A stretch of DNA of 64,000 nucleotides, from positions 1,056,001-1,120,000 of the forward strand of contig CP000068.1 of the NCBI GenBank assembly GCA_000002445.1. Direction: 5' to 3'. Below, in pieces: positions 7,700 through 55,083 of this stretch. Numbering within the stretch: position 1 is the first letter of the stretch; the number at the start of each line of letters is the position of its first letter. This stretch comes from Trypanosoma brucei. Taxonomy: Eukaryota. A program made the translations under genes and the position numbers. The notes beneath the pieces were generated by a model. The model saw nothing but the letters and a program-made list of their open reading frames with translations. It did not search any database and had not been told where the DNA came from.

Positions 7700-8416
7700 T
7701 TACTTCATAGCCTGTTCATACGTCCTTGAAACAAACTCCCAATCAACAATAGTCCAAATTTCCTTGAGGTAATCCACGCGCCGGTTTTCAAAGTCCTTGT
7801 AATATGCATGTTCCCACACATCCACTGTGAAGACGGGTCGGAGTCCTTTTGTGATTGGGCACCCGGCATTGCTGGTATTATCAATTACAAGAGGTTTACC
7901 CTTATTTTTCGGGTCCACACACAACCACGTCCAGCCAGAGCCAAAGTTGTTTGCTCCCGCTTGCATGAACGTGTCCTTAAAACCGTCAACTGAACCAAAC
8001 TGAGCAGTGAGGGCAGACTCCAGGGATTTGGGCATTGGCTTCCCATTGGGTGTAATGCACAACCAATAAAAGGAGTGGTTGAAGTGCTGTGCCGCTTGGT
8101 TGAACAAGACCTTCTTCTCAGAATCATTAGCTAAAGCAACGATAATATCCTCCATAGTTTTTCCATCGTATGTGGCTCCCGCCAGTGCATTCAACTTGTC
8201 AACATACGCCTTGTGATGCTTCGTGTAGTGCAGCTCCAACTGACGTGGGCTGAGCACCGGTGCACATCCGTCTTTCCAGTTGAACTGAAGCGGTGGCAAT
8301 TCCGCTGCTGCTCCATTTGGCTTCTTAAGGTTAGGCAAAGTTGCGTACTGCATGCACGCAAGGCCCAGTGGTGCCATGTGATGGCCCGTTGCGCAACGCA
8401 TCATGACAGACCTCAT
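7700..8416 (-). CDS. SODA: Iron superoxide dismutase with N-terminal mitochondrial-type presequence
   Basis: Fe/Mn-SOD motifs: HYTKHHKAY, FNQAAQHFNHSFYW and DVWEHAYY (metal ligands). Track ORF 7700..8443 begins with GTG. The first ATG at 8416-8414 gives MRSVMMRCATG... The gene symbol is by analogy with T. brucei mitochondrial Fe-SOD and is my recollection, not verified. Confidence 0.85.
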   Translation of the reverse strand: MRSVMMRCATGHHMAPLGLACMQYATLPNLKKPNGAAAELPPLQFNWKDGCAPVLSPRQLELHYTKHHKAYVDKLNALAGATYDGKTMEDIIVALANDSEKKVLFNQAAQHFNHSFYWLCITPNGKPMPKSLESALTAQFGSVDGFKDTFMQAGANNFGSGWTWLCVDPKNKGKPLVIDNTSNAGCPITKGLRPVFTVDVWEHAYYKDFENRRVDYLKEIWTIVDWEFVSRTYEQAMK

Positions 8417-40815: not shown

Positions 40816-42576
40816 CTAAACGCAGTCATGTAGGAAATAAACACGCAACTCATCTTCGGTTGCTTCCACCGCCAGAAAGTACAACAGATAGGCCGCATCC
40901 ACAGAAACTTGTCGGGCCATGTTGCCTACGTGCCCTTCAGAGAGGGGTACCATTTCATTCTTCGGTCCGAAAGGGCATAGTAACGCATCCACTGGACAGT
41001 CAAATTCGCCTACGATGCCGTTACAAACAAGCTCTGCCCAACAAATAGCCCTCAACACAGCGGTAGGAACAAGACAAGTGTCTGGGCTAAACTTCCGACA
41101 TACTCGACTTACATATTTCAGTAACGACAGCATTGAGTTGGACGGGGCCCAAACACCAACAGTGCATCCGGGTTCGGTTAGGCGCCGGTGGTCCCAAACT
41201 ACGGTTCCTCGGGTAAGGACCCTACATAATTCATCGGCCGCCTTCACTGCCGTATGTACGTTGCCAGATACATCAAAAGCTTTGTGCCCCGCAACCGCAT
41301 CCTTATACGAGGTAAACAAGGACTCAAGCCACGACGCGCCTTTCTTTGAAGGTGGATAAGAGCCATCCGCTTTAGCCCAAGGTGAAAAACAATGACCGAG
41401 TGCAGTATTCAGACTCGACAGCCATGCGTCGCGTTCAGAGCCCAAATTTCCCACCTCCTCGTGTCGTAGATGCTCCAAAAGAACCTTTCGGAGCAAGCTC
41501 ATGCGACTTCGTATATCATCATTACTCGAAAATTTTGGTAAAAGTGAAGGAGTCGTGATGAAACCGTACCACAGAACAAGCTCCGCATCTGTGTACGAAC
41601 CATATTGCAGAAATACCTGATCTCCCTTCGATACAGGAGCTGTCGTCACAAATATGTACGCGCCCATACATCTGTCAAATCTCATAGTGGCATTATTTGT
41701 TAGTGAATGATTGAAATAATCGACCCATGGAATGACAGCCCAAACCTCAGGATCGTAAGAAAACCCACGGCTCATGAGGGTGTTATAAGCCCAAATAAAC
41801 TGTTGCATTGTAAACGGTGTTGCACACGACATCGTGCAGCCACCAGAAGGTTGCACCAAGGGAAGATGCAGCGAAAGAATTGACATCACGATATTGAACT
41901 CTTTTTCTAGCTGCATCCGTTCTTCCAGCACCTTTCTTCTGTGCCTCTCAAAACACAGAAAGTTACGAAGACACGCACCACCCCCTTCACAGTCATGTGA
42001 CCTTGCGACGCCCACACAAGTACTGTCCAGGTGCGTGTGTTCCAACAACTCAAGGAGGTTATCGTACTTGGTTGGTAGGGACAATAGCCACGTTCTCATC
42101 CAACGGTGTATGAAAAATGGCCCTAAATCTGCATTTCCGCCTCCAGTGGACACGGTAAACATAACTTCAGAGGCACTACCAGCTTTTTTATGGAAAGCAT
42201 TGTTACTAAACCGACCACATTGCCCTGCGGCAACGAGCAAAGAGAAGATAATCATGGAGCCTGGTGATAACATTTGGTCTAAATCCCCTAGGATATCCAC
42301 AGATGTCTCCCTTCTCGACCTCCCATCGAAGGGGGTCCAACCGAGACGCTCTTGCTTCTGCTGAGAAATCCAAAAATTAAGATGATTTCGAGCCTTCTGG
42401 GCGGTAATCATAGATGACTCTGGAATCTTTACTATCACTGTGTTCGACGGCAAATTTTCCGTGGCAATAACGCCGTGTCCACCACCCATTTGGTGGATTG
42501 GCAGTACGCCGATGGAAGGGTGGAAGAAAGCGCCTTCTTCCTGCAACATAAGTTGGATAAGCGACACGCTCTCCAT
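40816..42576 (-). CDS. SET-domain lysine methyltransferase (Rubisco-LSMT/SETD6-like); first gene of the minus-strand polycistronic unit
   Basis: WVDYFNHS...GDQVFLQYGSYTDAELVLWYGF. Track start 42756 is TTG, followed by 60 hydrophobic non-homologous residues. The first ATG at 42576-42574 gives MESVSLIQLML. Confidence 0.6.
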   Translation of the reverse strand: MESVSLIQLMLQEEGAFFHPSIGVLPIHQMGGGHGVIATENLPSNTVIVKIPESSMITAQKARNHLNFWISQQKQERLGWTPFDGRSRRETSVDILGDLDQMLSPGSMIIFSLLVAAGQCGRFSNNAFHKKAGSASEVMFTVSTGGGNADLGPFFIHRWMRTWLLSLPTKYDNLLELLEHTHLDSTCVGVARSHDCEGGGACLRNFLCFERHRRKVLEERMQLEKEFNIVMSILSLHLPLVQPSGGCTMSCATPFTMQQFIWAYNTLMSRGFSYDPEVWAVIPWVDYFNHSLTNNATMRFDRCMGAYIFVTTAPVSKGDQVFLQYGSYTDAELVLWYGFITTPSLLPKFSSNDDIRSRMSLLRKVLLEHLRHEEVGNLGSERDAWLSSLNTALGHCFSPWAKADGSYPPSKKGASWLESLFTSYKDAVAGHKAFDVSGNVHTAVKAADELCRVLTRGTVVWDHRRLTEPGCTVGVWAPSNSMLSLLKYVSRVCRKFSPDTCLVPTAVLRAICWAELVCNGIVGEFDCPVDALLCPFGPKNEMVPLSEGHVGNMARQVSVDAAYLLYFLAVEATEDELRVYFLHDCV

Positions 42577-43802
42577 GTTAACAGGACAAAAAGCTTCTAC
42601 CAATTTTACTACTGATACCAATTTCAGAACATAAAGCACACAATTGAAACTAATGGGGAAATAGAGATAGCTTATTACTCGCACATGGCACGAAACTAGA
42701 ACCAACAGCTGAGGAAGTCTAATGAACCAAACAATAAAATGAAGGTCCGGCAACAAAAAGGAACTTGGAGACCGAATATCGACAACAGATCATGGGGATG
42801 GAGAGGTTTAGCATACGCATGGAGAAAGCAAATACAGTTATCGGTGAGACGACACACAAAAACAAAGAAGCTAATATTACGTGGACGCAGGGCTGAAACA
42901 CCATTCAGAGCTGGTCTATACTGTCACCAACCCGCCAAAGCAGCAGCAAAGCAGTAAATATATACCTACGTACGTATATACTTGAAGATACCTATCTCCA
43001 GAATGGCAAAGACGATCCTCATACCCACATCGCCCCTCTACCGGACACACACACGCACACCCTGGGGTGGCATAAGCACATCTAAAAAGCATACCCAATA
43101 TGACATTTGGTGTTACAATTTTTGGCATGTCACGCGAGTGCACACATGTGCGAAGGTGAAAGCTTGCTTTACCCCCAAGTAAACAGAAGATGGTTGCCCA
43201 CCAAGTAAGCCTGCATACAACCCAGTGAGAGCGCGCAGTGCGCACCTTTGTAACAAAGTTTATTTGCACGATATGCGCAAGTAACAGGAAATTCCTAAAA
43301 ATATGTGGCGTATTTTTTGTAGTCGTATATGTAGGTTGTATCCCATAAAGCTGTCGTCCACCATGTTAATATACAATAGTCAAAAAACAAGAGGTTTCTG
43401 AATAGATGACATGGGATATGGTGTAAGCAAAGTAGTAAAGACGTTGGTACGCACCTAAACTCGCTGATCACGTGGGTAAGGTGAAGCACAAAGGTAAAAA
43501 AAATAACTCTGATCTCCACTTTAGCGACCTTCAGTATTCCCGACAGACCACCAATTACAATGCAGTTGCACTAGAATATCCCATATACACACTATTAAAT
43601 ATACCATCAACGTTTATTCATAATTTACAGTGTGCTGTGCCAAAAAAAAAATTTTGCTTACACTTTGTCGCAAACACATCTCGGTGGCATCACGTGTGCT
43701 AACACGGGGCAAGCAGTACGGTAGTGCAGCAATTTCTTCACCAATCTCTGTACTCGGTAAACTGGTCGAGGTACACCCCAGTCTCTTTTTTTTTACATAA
43801 TA

Positions 43803-43814
43803 GGGGGGGGGGGG
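43803..43814 (+). repeat. G12 homopolymer
   Basis: ggggggggggggg read directly from the sequence. Confidence 0.95.
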
Positions 43815-44224
43815 TAAAGGCTGCCTCAGTGGCGGTGCCACGCGAAAGAGATTGCCGAAGGATATTACCGATGGAATCTCTCCACCAGCGGGAGAATTAC
43901 CTTACAGTTTTCAACTAGAAAGGTGACAATAAAAAAAACGCACCTCGTTCACGATCCAATGAGCTTGTAAGTGTCACCGTAGTGTACATGTAGCGCCACC
44001 GCAACTACCAGCAGATAGACATATACGTGCATAAGTTACCCAACAATGCTACGTCTTCTCACAAGGCGCAGGCTGACCTCCCCCCGTCTATTTACCCAAT
44101 GCGCCAGACTTTTGCAACGCACAATCCCTCCTAGCACACCAGACAGCCCTTAATTCAGTATCAGCAAATTTGGACACGATAGTTCACAACCCCTCTGTCC
44201 TCTCAACCACACTTGTCCGGCTAC

Positions 44225-44294
44225 CGGCACGTGCGCGTCCCATTTTCGTGTACAGCCCCACTTTCCTTCAGCGTAACTGCACGCGCACGTGCCG
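44225..44294. repeat. 14-bp perfect inverted repeat (cggcacgtgcgcgt / acgcgcacgtgccg) with 42-nt spacer; each arm contains a CACGTG palindrome
   Basis: Arm 1 at 44225-44238. Arm 2 at 44281-44294 is its exact reverse complement. Confidence 0.9.
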
Positions 44295-44661
44295 CTCCCA
44301 CAACTAGGCAGATTAAAAGGCGGCTGAAAGACTCCTGGCAGTGAACCCCTACACACGTTGCGCCGCACCTGCTTGTTGGGCTCCCGCTCCTCGGCCCCTG
44401 TAGGACGGTGTGGCCACTGAAGCGTCCTCTGACTTCATTTACCCGGCGGAAGCGTCCTATCGATCATATTCTTTTACCTGTTAGCTCTCTTTCTCGGGCG
44501 CTTCCTCTTGAAATTTAGCCCTCCCCCTCCCCTTAGGGCTCGAGCGTATAGTTCACCGCCCAGAACGCATTGCCACCACGCCCTCCCAGCCTCTCGGCCA
44601 GTTCTTTTTTTTTTTTTTGCGTTGCCCTCTCCGACTCCTCGAAAGGCTTAATGTTTTCGCA

Positions 44662-44672
44662 GTCTCCATTCC
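44662..44672 (-). repeat. C11 on + strand (G11 in minus-unit sense), preceded by T14 at 44605-44618
   Basis: Read directly from the sequence. Confidence 0.95.
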
Positions 44673-46064
44673 CCCCCCCCCCGCTTTCAGGCCAGTGCTC
44701 CCCTAGCTAATTAAAGACGCTGCTTCTCCATACGTGGTGGTATCTTTCAAAGCGGATCTCCCCCACAACAGCCTGTGCACTTGGTATACAAACCCTTTCA
44801 TTGCCACAGTTGGCCCCAACATATTTCCCTTTTTGACGAGTGTAACAGCGCCTCGTAGGAAGGGTATTACCCCTCAAGGTTTTGTAACCACTCTCATTCT
44901 TCATATATCTTGTTTTCCCCCTGCGCAGCCATCTCCTGTAGGGCGTCTCCTCTCCTCGGTTCCCTCTCGTGAGCCGTGTGTGCGTGCGTGCATGTGTAAT
45001 AATGCGTTTTTGCAGCTCTTTAGAGGGGCTGAGAGTTTTAACATGCATCCGAAACGGCCCTCAACACACGCTCTGCGGTAGCACACCCGTTTAGATTTGC
45101 TCCTGCAAGGCAATACCCATCGACGACATTAGAAGTGGAGTCTGTTACCATCCGTGGTGCTGCTGGACTTGAGTTCGACATAATGACGTTTGCGGGTGGC
45201 CCTCCATTTCGGACTCCGTGTCATTGCGACACATCCCTCGCACATTTTCGCACCGTCCTTTGGTGGCCTCCACCGTGCCGAAGACCCTCTTGTGACTCCC
45301 TCCGTTTTAAATATTCTCGAGCTTTCTAGCGAGCACTGCTGTGTGGTACGATCAGCTCTGCAACCGGGCGGTGTGGGTGTATCCGGTTTTCATCTGCACG
45401 AGGAATCTTACACAACTATTTTCATTGTGGCTCCTTTCGATGACGGTATGTTCGACGCCCCCTTTTTTTTAAAATGTTGTGTTACGGATTCATGTCGGTG
45501 CAAATGTGATGTGGATCCTGCACTTAGGGGCGACGATGGTCGGTGGTGTTTGTGGAGCTCCCGTCTATCTGGGTCCCTTCACGGAATCTGTACCGTGTCG
45601 TGTTGAGATGGCCTCGCCGCCCCCTTTTAAGATCGGATAGAGGTAACAAGTGAATTGTCGGGTATTAGGGTTACTCTCTTCTTTTGCGTGGAAGTATATT
45701 CCCCACCCGATGCAGAAGTGACGGTTCTGTTTGCGGAACTGGTTGAATCAAAACATATCTTTGCCGGTCTTGATGGGTGCGGCAGCCTCTTGATATTTTA
45801 TTGTAGCCCGAGTAGAAGTGGAGCCGAGGTCCGCGGTAAGTTGTTGGCCGGTCATTGTTGTAGCGTATGGTGCGCCACGTGATCTATCGTTTTTTATTTC
45901 CCCCTCATTTTCTTCGTAGCCGTCATTTTTCCTTTTTTTAGTATTGTAGAAAAGATGTGTATGGATGGTAAATGACGGATCATTCCCCTCGTTAGAGGAA
46001 GCTACTTTACTAATGCTTTTGTTGCCTTAGTCAAACTGCTTGTCTAATGAAACCGTGCTAAACT

Positions 46065-46091
46065 GTGGTGTGTGTGTGTGGGGGGGGGGGG
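46065..46091 (+). promoter_or_regulatory. (GT)7-8 followed by G11, 345 nt upstream of SMC3 ATG in sense orientation; GT-rich/G-tract promoter-like element
   Basis: tgtggtgtgtgtgtgtgggggggggggg read directly. GT-rich elements and G-runs have been reported at trypanosome Pol II start regions. Confidence 0.5.
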
Positions 46092-46383
46092 AAGGCCGTG
46101 TGCCGCGCCTGCTAGCACACCACAGCAGGTAACCATGCGCGGACGTTGCTTACACCTTGGTAGCTTCACTATCATTTTGCTGCTTAATGGTACCGTTTGT
46201 TAATTACCTTCAAGCAATGAGATAACCTTCTTATTACTGTTTTGTTTAATGTTGTCTTTTGTTCCACATCCTAAGCTTCTACATCAGGAGAGTGGTGTAT
46301 GTTGTTGCGCTGACTTTGTACTTTCCCCCTTAGACTGCACGGTTGCCAACATGAAATAACCTGAACTGATTGTTTAACATTAC

Positions 46384-46418: not shown

Positions 46419-46435
46419 ACCACTTACAGGATACT

Positions 46436-49400
46436 ATGTATATCAAAAATATTCTTATTTCCGGATTCCGCTCGTACCGAGAACAAGCGTTTGAGCAGGA
46501 GCTCTCGCCGAAAAACAACGTGATCGTTGGGAAAAACGGAGCAGGCAAGTCGAATTTCTTCGCTGCGATCCAGTTTGTTCTTTGTGAGAAATTTATGAAC
46601 CTTTCTTCTGTAGAGAGAAAGGATCTGTTCCACGTTGGATCCGGGAGGCCTGCGTTGCCCATCTTTGTGGAAATTATTTTTGATAATTCTGATGGTCGTC
46701 TTGTAATACCGGGAAAATCTGCTGTGAATGAAGTGCGTATACGGCGTACACTGGGCCTTAAGCAAGACGAATTTCGTGTAAATGACAAACGGTTCACGGC
46801 CACTGATATCCGGCAACTGCTGGAAAGCGCTGGGTTCTCGTCAACCAACCCTTACTATATTGTTGAGCAAGGCCAAATTTCAAGTTTGGCAAACATGAGT
46901 GATGAAGAACGGTTCCAACTTATAAAAGATGTGGCAGGTACGAGAGTTTATGAAGTAAGGCGAAAGGAGAGCGAGAAGATTTTGGAAGAAACGGAGGTGC
47001 AGCACGAGAAAATCGGGGAGTCTATTGCTCAACTCGAGGAGCGTCTTGAAGAGCTTCGGTCTGAGTCTGATGAACTCATGTCGTTCCAAGAGATTGACAA
47101 AAAAAGAAAGTGTGTTCAGTACTGTATCCTTAACTCAGACCTGAACGCTGCAAGAGAAGAACTTCGGAGGCTGGATGATGAGAGGAACTCTTACATGTCC
47201 CGCAGCGGAAGGGATCATTACGATATTGATGAAGCGAAAGCCATCATCAGTGAAGCTGAATCGGAGATACGTAATTGCGATCAGCGTATCTTGAGGTTGG
47301 AGGGGGAGCTACAGGACCTGGATACGAAAAGGGGCACATTGATGCGTGAAAAAGAGATTGTGCAATTAAATTGTATGTCATCTCTCAACACGATGAAAAG
47401 AACAGAGAGTGTGAAAACGAACGTTCTGAAGAGGGTTGGAGAACTGAACAAACAGATAGCAGAGACGAATGCTGGCTTGAAGAAGAAGCTTGCTATCATA
47501 CAACAGGAGCAGCTTACTGTTGATCAGAAAAGTGAGGAACTGTCCGCCATAGAAGGAAAACTTAAGGCACTTGAAGCGAGACGGGCTCGTCAATTGCTTT
47601 TCAAGAACAAGCAAGAGCGGGACAACTGGCTTGCTGAAGAGTCTAATAGAAACAGAAAAACCATAGAGAATTATAAACATGAATTAAAGTTTACGTGTAG
47701 TGAGATACAGAAAGTTGAAAAGCAAATTGAGGATGAGGAAACTGAACAGAAAAATTGGGAGGAATCATTAAAGAAATCAGATTCAGTTATAACGGAGCTT
47801 AAATCAAAGTACGAAGAGACGATGGCCTTCAGGAATTCACTGAGCGTTAAAAAGGGTGACCTCTGGAGAGAACAGTCTGCCCTTGTACAGACGGTTCGGA
47901 CACTACGCGAGAATCACAACAAAGCCCGCAGTCAACTCGAAAAAGTAATTCGCTCAGATGTTCGTCAAGGGTTGCAGTCTCTTAAAGAGGTTCTGGACGA
48001 GCTGGCCGACCCATCGCTAACAAATGCTGTACATGGCCAATTAATTGAGCTCATCGGCGTCTCGAACGGCTACGAGACAGCTGTTGAAGTGACAGCTGGT
48101 AATTCACTCTTTAACGTTGTTGTTGATTCATTCGAAGTTAGTGCGATTTTGCTGGAGAATATGAACAGCAGGAAGAAACCTGGACGTATATCATTTTTCC
48201 CAATGGATACGTGTAGGGGCACGGTGACACGGTTCGGTGAAGGTGTCGAGTGTAGCAGCTTGGCAGACCATATAATTTGTGATCCGAAGTTTGCTGGCAT
48301 TGTTGCCGAACTATTTGGAAATACTGCTGTTGTGACCTCCATTGCAGATGGTGAAAATGTTTCAAAAAAGTACGCATGTGACGCGGTAACGTTGGATGGG
48401 GATCAAGTCAGCCGGAGAGGTGGTATAACAGGTGGTTATATCGAATCTCGGAGTTTGAAACTCTCTGCTTTCAAGTATGAAAAGGTTGCTGCTGCAGATT
48501 TTTTAAGAGGAGATGAGGCCCTGAAGAAGATTACTCAGGAGTTGGACAACGTTAACCAGGCCTTAACAGGTGTTGTGACCACCCTTAGCTCGCTCAAGAC
48601 GGAGATGTCCTCCATAACGAAATCTAAAGACGGCTCACAAGTTGTCGAACAACATGCACAAAGAAAAGCAGCACTGGATAGGCAGAAGGATAAGTTATAC
48701 GCATCAAAGAAGCAGTTGGAGGACATGATAAATACTGCCCAAGTAAACATAGCCACCTACCAGCATGAGGGAAAAGAAGCGTTCAAATCGGCATGGAGCG
48801 AAGGTGAACAACGAGAGTTGGAGGCGCTGGTGAAAGATGTCGACGACCGCCGCATGAAACTCTCAAAACTTCAGCGGCGGAGTGCACAGTTGGCTGCGGA
48901 AGTGAGGGCCTTGGAGGATATGCGGCTTAACTTAAACGTCCAACTCACGGCTACTAAAAAGTTCTTTCACGATTCCGCTCAACTCAGTGCAAGTAATACC
49001 GCTATTACTAATGAAAAAGAAAATCTTGACGATGATATTTCTTTTAACTCGCAGCAAGCCAACGAAGTCTACAGGTTATTGGATGAGACCAGGAAAGAGA
49101 AACTTCGCAGGGAGGAAGAAGTCGAGAAGCTTAGGAGTGGCTACCTTGAGGCTCTGAATTCTATTCAGGAAAGAAGAGATTTCGACGGAAGGACTCTAAT
49201 GCAGCAGGCACATTGCATTAGACGTCGTGATGGCGCGGCGGAGAAGATAAGGCAACTGGGCGTAATACCCAAGGAAGCTGAGACATATTCTGGGTTGTCC
49301 AGAGAAAAACTAATACAAACACTCAAAGAGTGCAATAAAGCTGCTGAGAAATATGCACATATAAACCGAAAGGCAGTTGATCAGTACAATACATTAATGG

Positions 49401-50035
49401 AAACGAAAAACGGTCTTGTCGCCCAGAAAGAGGATCTTCAGAATGAACTGAAGAGTATTCGTGACTTAATGGACCACCTCGACTGCAAAAAGGATGAAGC
49501 AGTTGAGCGGACATACAAGCAAATTCAGTTGCACTTTGAGCAAGTTTTCAAAGAGTTAGTTACGACCGATGACTGTTACGGTAAACTTCAACTCATCATG
49601 TCAAACACCAGAAAAGAGGCAGGTGAGGATCCGTATGTTGCTGTTCAGATAAAAGTTTCTTTCGGACTAGGAGCTGCCGTCACTGACCTGAAACAACTGA
49701 GTGGTGGACAAAAATCACTTGTGGCGCTGGCGTTGATTTTTGCTATTCAGCGCTGTGATCCTGCACCATTTTATCTTTTCGATGAAATCGATGCTGCCCT
49801 CGATACTGAGTATCGGGCGTCTGTAGCGAAGCTTCTTTCTAAAGAATCAGGGTCGTGCCAATTTATTACAGCAACATTCAAAAACGAAATGCTTGACGTG
49901 GCCGATCACGTGCTCGGTGTTTTCTTTCACAACAAAATAAGTCGTATTCAAGCAATTACGGTTGAAGAAGGTAACAAGCTTTTGAAACAAGCAGTTGTTG
50001 AGGAAAGAAAAAGAGTCCGTGAGCATGTTGAATGA
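46436..50035 (+). CDS. SMC3: Structural maintenance of chromosomes protein 3 (cohesin SMC3); first gene of the plus-strand polycistronic unit
   Basis: MYIKNILISGFRSYREQ..GKNGAGKSNFFAAIQFVL (Walker A), hinge, and the signature LSGGQKSLVALALIFAIQRCDPAPFYLFDEIDAALD. 1199 aa. ATG verified at 46436. polyY+AG lies 10-50 nt upstream. Confidence 0.9.
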   Translation: MYIKNILISGFRSYREQAFEQELSPKNNVIVGKNGAGKSNFFAAIQFVLCEKFMNLSSVERKDLFHVGSGRPALPIFVEIIFDNSDGRLVIPGKSAVNEVRIRRTLGLKQDEFRVNDKRFTATDIRQLLESAGFSSTNPYYIVEQGQISSLANMSDEERFQLIKDVAGTRVYEVRRKESEKILEETEVQHEKIGESIAQLEERLEELRSESDELMSFQEIDKKRKCVQYCILNSDLNAAREELRRLDDERNSYMSRSGRDHYDIDEAKAIISEAESEIRNCDQRILRLEGELQDLDTKRGTLMREKEIVQLNCMSSLNTMKRTESVKTNVLKRVGELNKQIAETNAGLKKKLAIIQQEQLTVDQKSEELSAIEGKLKALEARRARQLLFKNKQERDNWLAEESNRNRKTIENYKHELKFTCSEIQKVEKQIEDEETEQKNWEESLKKSDSVITELKSKYEETMAFRNSLSVKKGDLWREQSALVQTVRTLRENHNKARSQLEKVIRSDVRQGLQSLKEVLDELADPSLTNAVHGQLIELIGVSNGYETAVEVTAGNSLFNVVVDSFEVSAILLENMNSRKKPGRISFFPMDTCRGTVTRFGEGVECSSLADHIICDPKFAGIVAELFGNTAVVTSIADGENVSKKYACDAVTLDGDQVSRRGGITGGYIESRSLKLSAFKYEKVAAADFLRGDEALKKITQELDNVNQALTGVVTTLSSLKTEMSSITKSKDGSQVVEQHAQRKAALDRQKDKLYASKKQLEDMINTAQVNIATYQHEGKEAFKSAWSEGEQRELEALVKDVDDRRMKLSKLQRRSAQLAAEVRALEDMRLNLNVQLTATKKFFHDSAQLSASNTAITNEKENLDDDISFNSQQANEVYRLLDETRKEKLRREEEVEKLRSGYLEALNSIQERRDFDGRTLMQQAHCIRRRDGAAEKIRQLGVIPKEAETYSGLSREKLIQTLKECNKAAEKYAHINRKAVDQYNTLMETKNGLVAQKEDLQNELKSIRDLMDHLDCKKDEAVERTYKQIQLHFEQVFKELVTTDDCYGKLQLIMSNTRKEAGEDPYVAVQIKVSFGLGAAVTDLKQLSGGQKSLVALALIFAIQRCDPAPFYLFDEIDAALDTEYRASVAKLLSKESGSCQFITATFKNEMLDVADHVLGVFFHNKISRIQAITVEEGNKLLKQAVVEERKRVREHVE

Positions 50036-52060
50036 TGTCGATAATTTTTTTTATTATTTAGGTGCTAGGGCATGTGGGGAGGAAAGGTTACTTATTATTT
50101 TCATTTTCTATCTACGCCATTTGGATGACAGAGGGTTCGCTGTTCCGTTACACTGAGCAAAAATGTAACGCAACGTTTTACATACGAGTATGGCTTGATG
50201 TATAGAACATTTTTTTCTTAACGGCATTTCTTTACATATGGTAACAGTAGTTTTACTTGGGTAACATATTTCCACTTCCTCTACCTGACCAATTTACTTA
50301 GCATCCTATATACTAGAAAGGCATATAATATGTAGTGTCGGTTCTTGTGCATTGGAAAAAGAGGGCGGCTACACGGTCTTTGCTTTGTGCAAAACTTGTT
50401 GTTACCCTACGGGAGTTTTTCCTTTGAAAACCGTTTGTATACCCTCAATTTGAAGTTTTTCAGCGTCTTTATGCCTGTACGAGCGGGGTAACTTCGTGAA
50501 GCTGCGACCCCTTGAATACGTCTCTGACTCGCTGAAACACACTAGCGTGTGGCAAAGGGCATATTCTTTGTTTCGGGAGGTTTCTGGCTTGTTACTGTGT
50601 GGTCGACTTATGTGTGTTGCTCACGTGGCTGACAAGACAGAATCGATAGACGACAAGTAAGCGCCACCACTACAGAAGACTGTCACAGAATTTGGTGCAG
50701 GAAATGACTGTTACAGTTGTTTGAATTCCCCTCATGCTTTGCAGCAGCGCCTAATCTACCGCTGATTTAACGTGCAGTGCTACACCACGCCTCCCACAAT
50801 GTACGACCTACAAAGTGAACGGGTACAACTCCCTGCCAGGAACGGGCGGCGTTAAGGCGGCAATACAGAAAAGACCACTGTTATCACGTAGGCAAATATT
50901 TTTTTTTTTATGTTCATCGACATGTAGTCGTACATAAAACGAAATGACTTATTGTGACATTAACCACTCCACTTACATGTTAATATAATATTCGTTTTTA
51001 ATATTTTCTCTGCACGTCAGCCCGACCTGTGAGCTGACGCCAGCGGATAATCGTGTTCAAATTTAGCGTCACCGTATTATATATTAATATGTATATATTT
51101 GTGCAGAGCATAAAGCGACCCTGCACGTATATCGGCTTTCTAATGTTAAAATAAGTATTCGAGAAGGCGGGACAGTTACTACACTACGATCATGTGACTG
51201 CAAGGTCGCTTCACCGCCATTGTAAAAATGACCGTATACTGGAGAGTAAAAATCCAGATGAAATGTTGTCGCTCCGAGTGCGGGTCAAACAATTTCTTCA
51301 GGTTTTGTATAAGTGGCGACATTCGAGTAGAAGTTGATGAGCATACTTAAACCCAAGATTCATAATTGGCATTTCACTTGCAGACAGTGAAGTAGTTATT
51401 TTTTTCGGCAACAACTGATTGTCCTCGGCGTTTCATTGTCATCTCAGCTATTATTTTCAACCATCTTTTTAGCCAGCGGTTTGAATACATTTTCGGCAGT
51501 GCTCGTTCGTATCGCTGTACACTCATCCTCTCTCTTTCCCTCTAGATATATGTCCAAACTGTTAGGAGGGAGCAGTCTATCAAGGGATGGAGGAGTGAAG
51601 GAGGTTTTGATGTGGTGCAAAAGGTGGAGAGAAATGAGAAACTATTCCAACTATCCTCTTTCCTTTTTTCTTTTCTTTCTTTTTTTTTTTGTCTTCTCTG
51701 AGTGGAGGTATGAATCGTTTACTTTGGTTGCTTTGAACTTTTCTCCATTTGAAGGAGTATGTTACTCAAAGTGTCGCATCTCTACACTTTCACAAATTGT
51801 ATACATATCCTCTCTCTTTTCTTGAAAACTTCTGTCCATGAATTAACTGTGATTCCTCTTATAGCGTTTTTACGCGTAAAGGAACCATTGTTCCCTTCAG
51901 GTGCACCACAGATAATAGCACAGCGGCGCCAACAACCAGCTGCACGTGAAGTATCGTTTAGTTGCATATTTTATTGGTTAGGTTTCTTGCATATTTCACG
52001 TGTTACTCATTTTTAAAATGTTTTGTATGTTTCTTTAGTGTTGGGAACGAACGTGCCAAC

Positions 52061-52111
52061 TTTTTTTTTTTTTACCTGACAACTTTTTTATTTAATTTTG
52101 CTTTTTCTTAG
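52061..52111 (+). promoter_or_regulatory. Polypyrimidine tract (T13 then T/C-rich) ending in AG: candidate trans-splice acceptor for the TGT-like gene
   Basis: T13 at 52061-52073. AG at 52110-52111. The ATG is 21 nt downstream. Confidence 0.6.
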
Positions 52112-52131
52112 AGGTGGCAGCAAATAGTGGA

Positions 52132-55042: not shown

Positions 55043-55045
<3 letters not shown>

Positions 55046-55083
<38 letters not shown>
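55046..55083. repeat. (AT)19 microsatellite, the longest in the window
   Basis: Read directly. Confidence 0.95.

What the first reader, a model, noticed from the sequence alone, without database searches (positions are those of the whole stretch)
44225..44294. Perfect 14-bp inverted repeat with CACGTG cores inside the strand-switch region
cggcacgtgcgcgt at 44225-44238 and its exact reverse complement at 44281-44294 lie 42 nt apart. Each arm contains the palindromic hexamer CACGTG. A 14-bp perfect inverted repeat within 100 nt is unlikely by chance in about 4 kb. It could form a hairpin or cruciform, or be a symmetric protein-binding site at the centre of the divergent region.
Basis: seen in the sequence. 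Interest (0 to 1): 0.5.

Follow-up and report, generated by a model that had tools for sequence, protein, structure and literature searches.

The report
Lone inverted repeat in trypanosome promoter gap
A perfect 14-base inverted repeat really does sit in the middle of a Trypanosoma brucei region where two gene arrays are transcribed in opposite directions, but it is a one-off, lineage-specific sequence with no sign of conservation, recurrence or a known binding factor, so it is most likely an ordinary by-product of DNA copying rather than a regulatory element.

Summary
CGGCACGTGCGCGT (44225-44238) and its exact reverse complement (44281-44294) lie 42 nt apart, and each arm contains CACGTG inside the 8-bp palindrome GCACGTGC.

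The window is T. brucei TREU927 chromosome 5 (window = chr5_v4 minus 1,056,000). The repeat lies in the divergent strand-switch region between Tb927.5.3500 (SET-domain gene) and Tb927.5.3510 (SMC3). Published splice-site data bound the initiation core to 43398-44928, and the repeat centre is about 97 bp from that core's midpoint.

Locally it is improbable: P about 0.03 per 64 kb, and 0.0006 for the core. About 10-13 such repeats are still expected by chance across the genome.

- It is isolated, with sharp edges and no wider palindrome.
- It has no other copy in the window, no target-site duplication and no Rfam match.
- It lies in no mapped mature transcript.
- It is identical in T. b. gambiense and T. 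equiperdum, but those genomes are about 99% identical here, so this says little.
- Four complete orthologous regions in other trypanosomes contain no CACGTG at all.
- The 42-nt spacer argues against a cruciform.
- No CACGTG-binding factor is described in trypanosomes.

Best reading: a neutral repeat from replication template switching or chance. Interest is low. The decisive genome-wide enrichment test could not be run.

The parts
44225..44238 (.). Left arm of the inverted repeat, CGGCACGTGCGCGT (79% GC). It contains CACGTG at 44228-44233 and the 8-bp palindrome GCACGTGC at 44227-44234.
   Evidence: (I8)
44239..44280 (.). 42-nt spacer, CCCATTTTCGTGTACAGCCCCACTTTCCTTCAGCGTAACTGC (52% GC). It has no internal symmetry.
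44281..44294 (.). Right arm, ACGCGCACGTGCCG, the exact reverse complement of the left arm. It contains CACGTG at 44286-44291 and GCACGTGC at 44285-44292.
43398..44928 (.). Context: the initiation core of the divergent strand-switch region. This is the DNA between the first mapped trans-splice acceptor on the minus strand (Tb5.NT.76 5' end, 43397) and on the plus strand (Tb5.NT.79, 44929). It holds the repeat, a G12 tract (43803-43814), a T-run (44603-44620) and a C12 tract (44671-44682).
   Evidence: (Kolev 2010 supplements; offset verified at 7 of 7 acceptor sites)
42767..43397 (-). Context: published novel transcript Tb5.NT.76 (630 nt, chr5 1099397-1098767), the first processed RNA of the leftward unit. 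It does not include the repeat.
44929..46315 (+). Context: published novel transcript Tb5.NT.79 (1386 nt, chr5 1100929-1102315), the first processed RNA of the rightward unit. It does not include the repeat.
40816..42576 (-). Context: Tb927.5.3500, a SET-domain protein (586 aa), first annotated gene of the leftward unit. Its splice acceptor is at 42649.
46436..50035 (+). Context: Tb927.5.3510, SMC3 (1199 aa), first annotated gene of the rightward unit. Its splice acceptor is at 46419.

Best explanation
The feature is an isolated perfect 14-bp inverted repeat specific to the T. brucei lineage. It lies in the non-coding 1.5-kb initiation core between the two divergent Pol II transcription units that begin with Tb927.5.3500 and Tb927.5.3510 (SMC3). 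The most likely origin is neutral. In a short-range replication template switch, the nascent strand briefly copied about 14 nt from the complementary strand some 40-60 nt away, creating the second arm in one step. Failing that, it is a plain chance coincidence. On this reading it has no sequence-specific function. When the region is transcribed, the repeat will fold into a stable hairpin, but only in the unspliced leader RNA upstream of the first splice acceptors, which is discarded.

Shown: the anatomy, the position relative to published transcripts, the isolation, and the lack of recurrence or conservation.

Inferred: the template-switch origin and the absence of function.
For: - Boundaries are sharp. 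Complementarity is 14/14 and then nothing, and the flanks show no reverse-complement similarity beyond chance (score 10 against a shuffle mean of 10.0).
- The arms are 42 nt apart, within the range documented for template-switch events that create perfect repeats of 14 bp or more in eukaryotes (PMC5453318).
- The 6 bases outside the GCACGTGC core are mirrored too, as expected from copying.
- There is no general excess of short-range repeats in the window, and none with 11-13-nt arms. This fits a single event.
- About 10-13 such repeats are expected per genome by chance alone.
- The 14-mer and GCACGTGC occur only here in 64 kb, and the element is not a dispersed repeat.
- Four complete orthologous strand-switch regions (T. 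cruzi, T. grayi, T. melophagium, T. conorhini) and two partial ones (T. congolense, T. vivax) have no CACGTG and no comparable repeat.
- The literature describes T. brucei start regions as dispersed, GT-rich and lacking consensus motifs (PMC5579346; PMC9566855; PMC12227686). No trypanosome CACGTG biology was found.
- The repeat lies outside all mapped mature transcripts. It matches no Rfam family and no ORF with a Pfam domain.
Against: - It is locally improbable: P = 0.0006 for the core and 0.0017 for the strand-switch region. With roughly 65 divergent pairs, only about 0.04-0.1 such repeats are expected in all cores together. Its position within 100 bp of the core midpoint is therefore mildly suspicious, though this is a post hoc observation.
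- CACGTG occurs 5 times in the strand-switch region against 1.06 expected.
- It is perfectly conserved, spacer included, in T. b. gambiense and T. equiperdum. This is uninformative at about 1% divergence.
- The template-switch origin could not be polarised because no outgroup sequence aligns.
- Absence from distant species has little power, since the whole region is unalignable at that distance.
Confidence: 0.62

Rival explanations
1. The repeat is a paired protein-binding site. Two identical palindromes (GCACGTGC, centres 58 bp apart) would each bind a dimeric sequence-specific factor. This would mark or insulate the gap between the two oppositely oriented core promoters.
For: - The palindromic cores are perfect and unique in 64 kb.
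- The position is close to the midpoint of the experimentally bounded core.
- CACGTG occurs 5 times against 1.06 expected in the strand-switch region.
- Two unidirectional sequence-specific core promoters per divergent region are reported in T. brucei (Cordon-Obras 2022, as cited in PMC11796357).
Against: - No CACGTG-binding protein or E-box biology is described in trypanosomes. From my own knowledge, kinetoplastids lack bHLH factors.
- No motif was found under promoter-complex or Pol II peaks (PMC9566855).
- There are no CACGTG sites in four orthologous regions.
- The enrichment is not significant after correcting for 64 palindromic hexamers, and two of the five copies are the repeat itself.
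- A 58-bp spacing is about 5.5 helical turns, which puts the two sites on opposite faces of the helix.
- The mirrored flanks are not required by this model.
Confidence: 0.12
2. The repeat acts as an RNA hairpin. Promoter-proximal primary transcripts in either direction would fold a 14-bp GC-rich stem that influences the 5' leader. Possible effects are on stability, Pol II pausing, R-loop formation, or limiting antisense read-through between the divergent promoters.
For: - The predicted stems are very stable on both strands: -31.7 and -43.4 kcal/mol, z = -3.5 and -4.1, with no shuffle folding as well.
- Initiation at T. brucei start regions is bidirectional, and SL-lacking leader RNAs accumulate there (PMC2936537).
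- The repeat lies upstream of the first acceptor on both strands, so it would be in such leaders.
- A gap in the numbering of the novel transcripts (NT.77 and NT.78 are missing) falls in this core.
Against: - The stability is an automatic consequence of the repeat.
- There is no covariation to test, because all three available sequences are identical.
- There is no Rfam match.
- The leader RNAs are discarded by-products.
- A selected RNA stem would tolerate G-U pairs and mismatches, so perfection points to recency or a DNA-level origin.
- The structure is not conserved in other species.
Confidence: 0.12
3. The repeat forms a DNA cruciform or hairpin that extrudes under transcription-driven negative supercoiling between the divergent promoters. 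The structure would be recognised by structure-specific proteins such as an HMG-box protein, a topoisomerase or origin factors.
For: - The arms are GC-rich and perfect, and ssDNA folds at -20.6 kcal/mol with z = -3.9.
- Negative supercoiling is expected between divergent promoters (general knowledge).
- The trypanosomatid HMG protein TDP1 is said to bind non-canonical DNA structures such as cruciforms (PMC8893665).
Against: - The 42-nt spacer means 70 bp must melt, leaving two large loops. Established knowledge is that cruciform extrusion falls off steeply with spacer length beyond a few bases.
- The spacer is not AT-rich (52% GC).
- An earlier hairpin-content analysis of Leishmania strand-switch regions found no common feature (PMC1805754).
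Confidence: 0.04
4. The repeat is the relic of a tiny mobile element: 14-bp terminal inverted repeats around a 42-bp body, like a MITE.
For: The layout formally fits terminal inverted repeats with a short internal segment.
Against: - There is no target-site duplication of 2-11 bp.
- There is no second copy in 64 kb.
- From my own knowledge, no DNA transposons are known in T. brucei, only retroelements.
- No transposase or reverse-transcriptase relic is present in nearby ORFs.
Confidence: 0.02

Closest known systems
Template-switch (quasi-palindrome correction, four-point model) inverted repeats. Sources: Ripley 1982; Dutra and Lovett 2006; Loytynoja and Goldman 2017 (PMC5453318).
   Same: The arms are perfect with abrupt ends and lie within tens of bases of each other. 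Arm length matches the 14-bp threshold used for high-confidence events. The arms can form a hairpin. No selection is needed.
   Different: The event cannot be polarised here, because no outgroup shows one arm without the other. The process has not been documented in trypanosomes.
E-box / G-box CACGTG sites bound by bHLH or bZIP dimers (for example MYC/MAX, USF, yeast Cbf1/Pho4, plant G-box factors).
   Same: It has an identical palindromic core. GCACGTGC is used as an E-box oligonucleotide in bHLH studies. It is located near a promoter.
   Different: No such factor or motif is described in trypanosomes. The motif is not conserved in orthologous regions. The bases beyond the core are mirrored, which site selection does not require.
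T. brucei Pol II start regions: dispersed GT-rich promoters (Wedel 2017, PMC5579346) and paired unidirectional core promoters (Cordon-Obras 2022).
   Same: It lies in the same genomic compartment, an experimentally supported divergent initiation region.
   Different: Those promoter elements are strand-asymmetric (GT-rich on the coding strand) and directional. The repeat is symmetric and sits in a stretch that is C-rich on the plus strand (GT 43%). I could not read the 75-bp promoter motifs, so no direct comparison was possible.
Structural analyses of Leishmania strand-switch regions (Tosato 2001; Puechberty 2007, PMC1805754).
   Same: They ask the same question: do hairpins or structural features mark strand-switch regions?
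   Different: Those studies found high intrinsic curvature but no common hairpin feature. Here there is a single discrete perfect repeat in one locus of another genus.
siRNA-producing inverted repeats of T. brucei (Tschudi 2012, PMC3447711).
   Same: It is an inverted repeat in T. brucei that could give double-stranded RNA.
   Different: From my own knowledge, those repeats are long (hundreds of bp or more). A 14-bp stem is too short to be a Dicer substrate. I did not read the paper in detail.

Membership tests
E-box/G-box transcription-factor site | CACGTG core present | tested here: met
   CACGTG lies at 44228-44233 and 44286-44291.
E-box/G-box transcription-factor site | Motif over-represented in regulatory DNA relative to background | tested here: inconclusive
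   There are 5 copies against 1.06 expected in the strand-switch region, but 18 against 18.1 in the whole window. The excess is not significant after correcting for 64 palindromic hexamers, and two copies are the repeat itself. A genome-wide test was not possible.
E-box/G-box transcription-factor site | Site conserved in orthologous regulatory regions | tested here: not met
   No CACGTG occurs in the T. cruzi, T. grayi, T. melophagium or T. conorhini strand-switch regions, nor in the partial T. congolense and T. vivax pieces. Power is low because the regions do not align.
E-box/G-box transcription-factor site | Cognate bHLH/bZIP-type factor encoded by the organism | not testable with these tools
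   No T. brucei proteome was available. The literature search found no trypanosome CACGTG biology.
Cruciform-forming inverted repeat | Perfect arms of about 10 bp or more | tested here: met
   14/14 complementary.
Cruciform-forming inverted repeat | Short spacer (a few bases), so that extrusion is energetically feasible | tested here: not met
   The spacer is 42 nt and 52% GC.
Cruciform-forming inverted repeat | Extrusion detected in supercoiled DNA or in vivo | not testable with these tools
   This needs chemical or enzymatic probing.
Template-switch-generated inverted repeat | Perfect arms with abrupt boundaries and no wider palindrome | tested here: met
   There is no extension, and flank similarity equals the shuffles.
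Template-switch-generated inverted repeat | Arms within tens of bases of each other | tested here: met
   42-nt spacer; range per PMC5453318.
Template-switch-generated inverted repeat | An outgroup carries one arm but not the other (polarised event) | not testable with these tools
   T. b. gambiense and T. equiperdum already have both arms. The T. congolense contig stops 1093 bp from the SET gene. More distant regions do not align.
T. brucei Pol II promoter element | Lies in an experimentally supported start region | tested here: met
   Kolev 2010 Table S14 lists the units as 'Divergent'. The core is bounded by mapped splice acceptors.
T. brucei Pol II promoter element | GT-rich on the coding strand, with directional activity | tested here: not met
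   The repeat is symmetric. The local 100-bp window is 43% GT and 41% C on the plus strand. The cumulative GT-skew minimum lies at 44821.
T. brucei Pol II promoter element | Drives reporter transcription | not testable with these tools
   This needs a reporter assay.
MITE/TIR transposon | Target-site duplication flanking the terminal repeats | tested here: not met
   No direct repeat of 2-11 bp flanks the element.
MITE/TIR transposon | Multiple dispersed copies | tested here: not met
   There is no second copy in 64 kb. The whole genome could not be searched.
Known structured RNA (Rfam) | Match to a curated covariance model | tested here: not met
   No hit at gathering score in the window. In the strand-switch region, the only hit was SCARNA7 at 19.7 bits against a cut-off of 65, located elsewhere at 43566-43629.

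The most novel reading that the evidence does not exclude
The two GCACGTGC palindromes form a bipartite, sequence-specific element recognised by an as yet unknown dimeric DNA-binding factor. It would mark the boundary between the two unidirectional core promoters of a T. brucei divergent start region. This would be a discrete cis-element in a system long thought to lack them, perhaps one of a small class that only a genome-wide scan would reveal.
Probability: 0.07. Interest if true: 0.6.

Novelty: new member of a known kind. Interest (0 to 1): 0.15.

Why it matters
Whether trypanosome Pol II initiation uses discrete sequence elements is still an open question. Only GT-rich tracts and one dissected 75-bp promoter are known. 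A recurrent palindromic element at the centre of divergent start regions would therefore matter. The evidence here does not support that. The repeat is a single, unconserved, non-recurring sequence, so as it stands it adds nothing to that debate.

The useful by-products are two. One is a verified coordinate map (window = chr5_v4 minus 1,056,000), which lets anyone overlay published ChIP-seq and 5'-triphosphate data on chr5 1,100,225-1,100,294. The other is a precise anatomy of this strand-switch region.

Tried and rejected
- Exact-protein look-ups for the TREU927 SMC3 failed. Cluster members from T. b. gambiense and T. equiperdum worked instead.
- Conservation in close relatives turned out uninformative, because the three genomes are about 99% identical across the region.
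- The T. vivax contig has only 821 bp upstream of SMC3, and the T. congolense contig only 1093 bp upstream of SET. Neither reaches the orthologous position.
- A sensitive blastn between the T. brucei region and four other species found no conserved non-coding block.
- The idea of a larger degenerate palindrome between the G12 and C12 tracts was rejected, because flank similarity equals the shuffles.
- tRNA and Rfam searches were negative. Tandem repeats were irrelevant.
- The Pfam scan of the region's longer ORFs, including the ones spanning the repeat, was negative.
- The transposon reading was rejected for lack of a target-site duplication and of further copies.
- Cordon-Obras 2022 and Siegel 2009 are not held, so the 75-bp promoter motifs and the published orientation of G-runs could not be checked.
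- Siegel 2010 supplements are not held. A search for Tb927.5.3500 found no paper.
- A genome-wide scan of T. brucei was impossible, because none of the searchable DNA collections contains it.
- No protein question bears on the verdict.

Full report
**Observation.** The reported sequence is present exactly as described. CGGCACGTGCGCGT lies at 44225-44238 and its perfect reverse complement at 44281-44294, with a 42-nt spacer. Complementarity stops dead at both ends of the arms. Each arm contains CACGTG inside the longer palindrome GCACGTGC. Neither the 14-mer nor GCACGTGC occurs anywhere else in the 64-kb window. The arms are 79% GC, the spacer is 52% GC, and the two palindrome centres are 58 bp apart.

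**Chance.** Dinucleotide-preserving shuffles give the following frequencies for a perfect repeat of at least 14 bp with a 3-100 nt loop:

| Sequence shuffled | Frequency |
|---|---|
| 64-kb window | 3% |
| 3.7-kb strand-switch region | 0.17% |
| 1.5-kb initiation core | 0.06% |

The analytic expectation is 0.024 per window but about 10-13 per 26-35 Mb genome. Repeats with 8-11-nt arms occur at exactly the shuffled rate in this window, with 78, 24, 4 and 2 observed against 76, 19, 5.1 and 1.3 expected. None has 11-13-nt arms apart from a (TA)n tract. The repeat is therefore a genuine local outlier. It is still of a kind that a genome this size should contain about ten times by chance alone.

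**Where it is.** The plus-strand gene starting at 46436 is 100% identical to SMC3 of Trypanosoma brucei brucei TREU927, which is Tb927.5.3510 (PMC2926603 and PMC3034197). All large ORFs to the left are on the minus strand and all to the right are on the plus strand. The nearest minus-strand gene is a SET-domain protein.

The supplements of Kolev et al. 2010 (PMC2936537) supply splice-acceptor positions for this locus. They give window coordinate = chr5_v4 coordinate minus 1,056,000. I verified this mapping: all seven published acceptor sites fall immediately after a polypyrimidine tract plus AG in the window, and both start codons match. Their Table S14 lists Tb927.5.3500 (-) and Tb927.5.3510 (+) as the first genes of two 'Divergent' Pol II units.

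Two published novel transcripts are the first processed RNAs on each side. Tb5.NT.76 is on the minus strand at window 43397 to 42767. Tb5.NT.79 is on the plus strand at window 44929 to 46315. Both sets of start sites must therefore lie within 43398-44928, a core of 1531 bp with midpoint 44163.

The repeat centre, 44259.5, is 97 bp from that midpoint. The cumulative GT-skew minimum for the whole window lies at 44821, with a plateau from about 44400 to 44900. The repeat is not part of any mapped mature transcript. Any RNA that carries it is an unspliced leader upstream of the first acceptor.

**What it is not.**
- It matches no tRNA and no Rfam family.
- No ORF with a Pfam domain crosses it.
- It is not a dispersed repeat.
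- It has no target-site duplication.
- It is not the core of a wider degenerate palindrome. The 400-bp flanks out to the G12 tract (43803-43814) and the C12 tract (44671-44682) show reverse-complement similarity equal to shuffles, with score 10 against a mean of 10.0.

**Conservation.** The repeat and its spacer are identical in T. b. gambiense (L001 7792-7861) and T. equiperdum (L002 7784-7853). The three strand-switch regions differ at only about 1% of positions. The invariant stretch around the repeat (44193-44586, 394 bp) is matched by another of 415 bp elsewhere, so this says nothing.

Gene order (SET, switch, SMC3) is kept in T. melophagium, T. conorhini, T. cruzi and T. grayi. None of these four complete regions contains a single CACGTG or an inverted repeat longer than 12 bp. 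The same is true of the partial T. congolense and T. vivax pieces. No non-coding block aligns at that distance, so this absence is only weak evidence against function. It does show that the feature is specific to the T. brucei lineage.

**Motif recurrence.** CACGTG occurs 18 times in the window against 18.1 expected. It occurs 5 times in the 3.86-kb strand-switch region against 1.06 expected. Two of the five copies are the arms themselves. With 64 palindromic hexamers tested, the excess is not significant. Literature searches found CACGTG in trypanosome papers only inside PCR primers. GCACGTGC appears only as a bHLH E-box oligonucleotide in other organisms.

Work on T. brucei start regions describes dispersed GT-rich promoters without consensus motifs (PMC5579346; PMC12227686). 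It also describes two unidirectional core promoters per divergent region (Cordon-Obras 2022, as cited in PMC11796357). An explicit search found no shared motif under promoter-complex and Pol II peaks (PMC9566855).

**Structure.** A single strand folds into the expected hairpin. The free energies are -20.6 kcal/mol for ssDNA, -31.7 for plus-strand RNA and -43.4 for minus-strand RNA. The z-scores are -3.5 to -4.1 and no shuffle does as well. That is a restatement of the repeat and not independent evidence.

Cruciform extrusion from duplex DNA would need 70 bp to melt and would leave two 42-nt loops. By established knowledge of cruciform energetics, this makes extrusion very unlikely. An earlier hairpin-content survey of Leishmania strand-switch regions found no common feature (PMC1805754).

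**Most likely explanation.** I commit to a neutral origin with about 0.6 confidence. Several observations point the same way:
- The boundaries are abrupt.
- The arm distance is 42 nt.
- There is no background of shorter repeats.
- The six bases outside the 8-bp palindromic core are mirrored as well.

Together these are what a single short-range template switch during replication produces. That process is documented to create perfect repeats of 14 bp or more in eukaryotic genomes without selection (PMC5453318). Pure coincidence remains possible, given about ten expected per genome. What is shown is the anatomy and the negative evidence. What is inferred is the mutational origin and the lack of function.

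**Rivals.**
- A paired binding site for an unknown dimeric factor (0.12).
- A functional hairpin in promoter-proximal leader RNA (0.12).
- A cruciform (0.04).
- A transposon relic (0.02).

The residual points in favour of function are the low local probability, the near-central position and the mild CACGTG excess. All three are post hoc.

**Novelty and score.** This is an ordinary short inverted repeat, a new instance of a known kind of sequence feature. Nothing sets it apart except its location. Interest is 0.15.

The most novel reading not excluded is a discrete palindromic boundary element between divergent trypanosome promoters. I give it about 7% probability, and it would deserve about 0.6 interest if true. 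The decisive test is a genome-wide scan of T. brucei for such repeats and for GCACGTGC at the roughly 65 divergent cores. It could not be run because no searchable collection here contains that genome.

Noticed in passing
window 45754-46059 (minus strand); L004 6611-7165, L006 6653-7165, L007 7309-7908, L008 8151-8672: T. melophagium, T. conorhini, T. cruzi and T. grayi all carry a conserved small gene (170-199 aa, no Pfam domain) as the first gene on the SET side of the switch. T. brucei has none called. Both tblastn (E = 0.019) and a four-sequence profile (E = 0.006-0.02) point to the same minus-strand stretch next to SMC3. It has three collinear motifs (VTVSL.., SFTIxxHxF, TMxGxQ) but also an in-frame stop and an indel between T. 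brucei strains. It is probably a decayed relic, and it is now overlapped by the plus-strand transcript Tb5.NT.79. If real, the ancestral switch point lay to the right of about 46000 and has since moved.
   Followed up: partly
window 50036-52113; L007 14134-17688, L006 14149-17718, L004 14369-16327, L008 1-3268: A myosin gene of about 1185 aa lies between SMC3 and the TGT gene in the four stercorarian species. It is absent in T. brucei and T. vivax. T. brucei has the published novel transcript Tb5.NT.80 (window 50302-52014) in its place, and tblastn finds no myosin relic there.
   Followed up: partly
window 44707-45048 (minus strand) = L001 8272-8613: The T. b. gambiense annotation calls a 113-aa arginine/lysine-rich hypothetical protein here. 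It has no Pfam match. It is antisense to the 5' end and splice acceptor of the mapped plus-strand transcript Tb5.NT.79, and it has three amino-acid differences from TREU927. It is probably a spurious gene call.
   Followed up: partly
window 43803-43814 (G12), 44671-44682 (C12), 46080-46091 (G12): Homopolymer G/C tracts of 12 bases bracket the initiation core. The G12/C12 pair is symmetric about 44242.5, only 17 bp from the repeat centre. Their length varies between T. brucei strains. Each reads as a C-run on the sense strand of the unit it faces, so they may belong to the polypyrimidine tracts of the first splice acceptors. The near-coincidence of centres is post hoc.
   Followed up: partly
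window 43469, 43691, 44228, 44286, 45876: There are five CACGTG sites in the 3.86-kb strand-switch region against 1.06 expected, while the window as a whole is at expectation. GATCACGTGG occurs at 43466 and, inverted, at 45874. Four orthologous regions in other trypanosomes have none. The excess is not significant after multiple-test correction.
   Followed up: yes
L002 about 7745-7763 (equivalent to window 44186): T. equiperdum has a 19-bp insertion (CAACCGAACTAGCCATCAG) 39 bp to the left of the repeat, relative to TREU927 and T. b. gambiense. It is not a duplication or an inverted copy of nearby sequence.
   Followed up: partly
chr5_v4 between 1099397 and 1100929 (window 43398-44928): The numbering of Kolev's novel transcripts jumps from Tb5.NT.76 to Tb5.NT.79. 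Two provisional transcripts, NT.77 and NT.78, were apparently dropped and would fall in the core that holds the repeat. They may have been SL-lacking leader RNAs.
   Followed up: no
L006 5030-6193: T. conorhini has a JAB/MPN-domain gene (387 aa) between SET and the small gene. It is not called at this position in the other species examined and has no relic in the T. brucei window.
   Followed up: partly
window 55045-55080: A (TA)n microsatellite accounts for every other 'perfect inverted repeat' of 12 bp or more in the window.
   Followed up: yes
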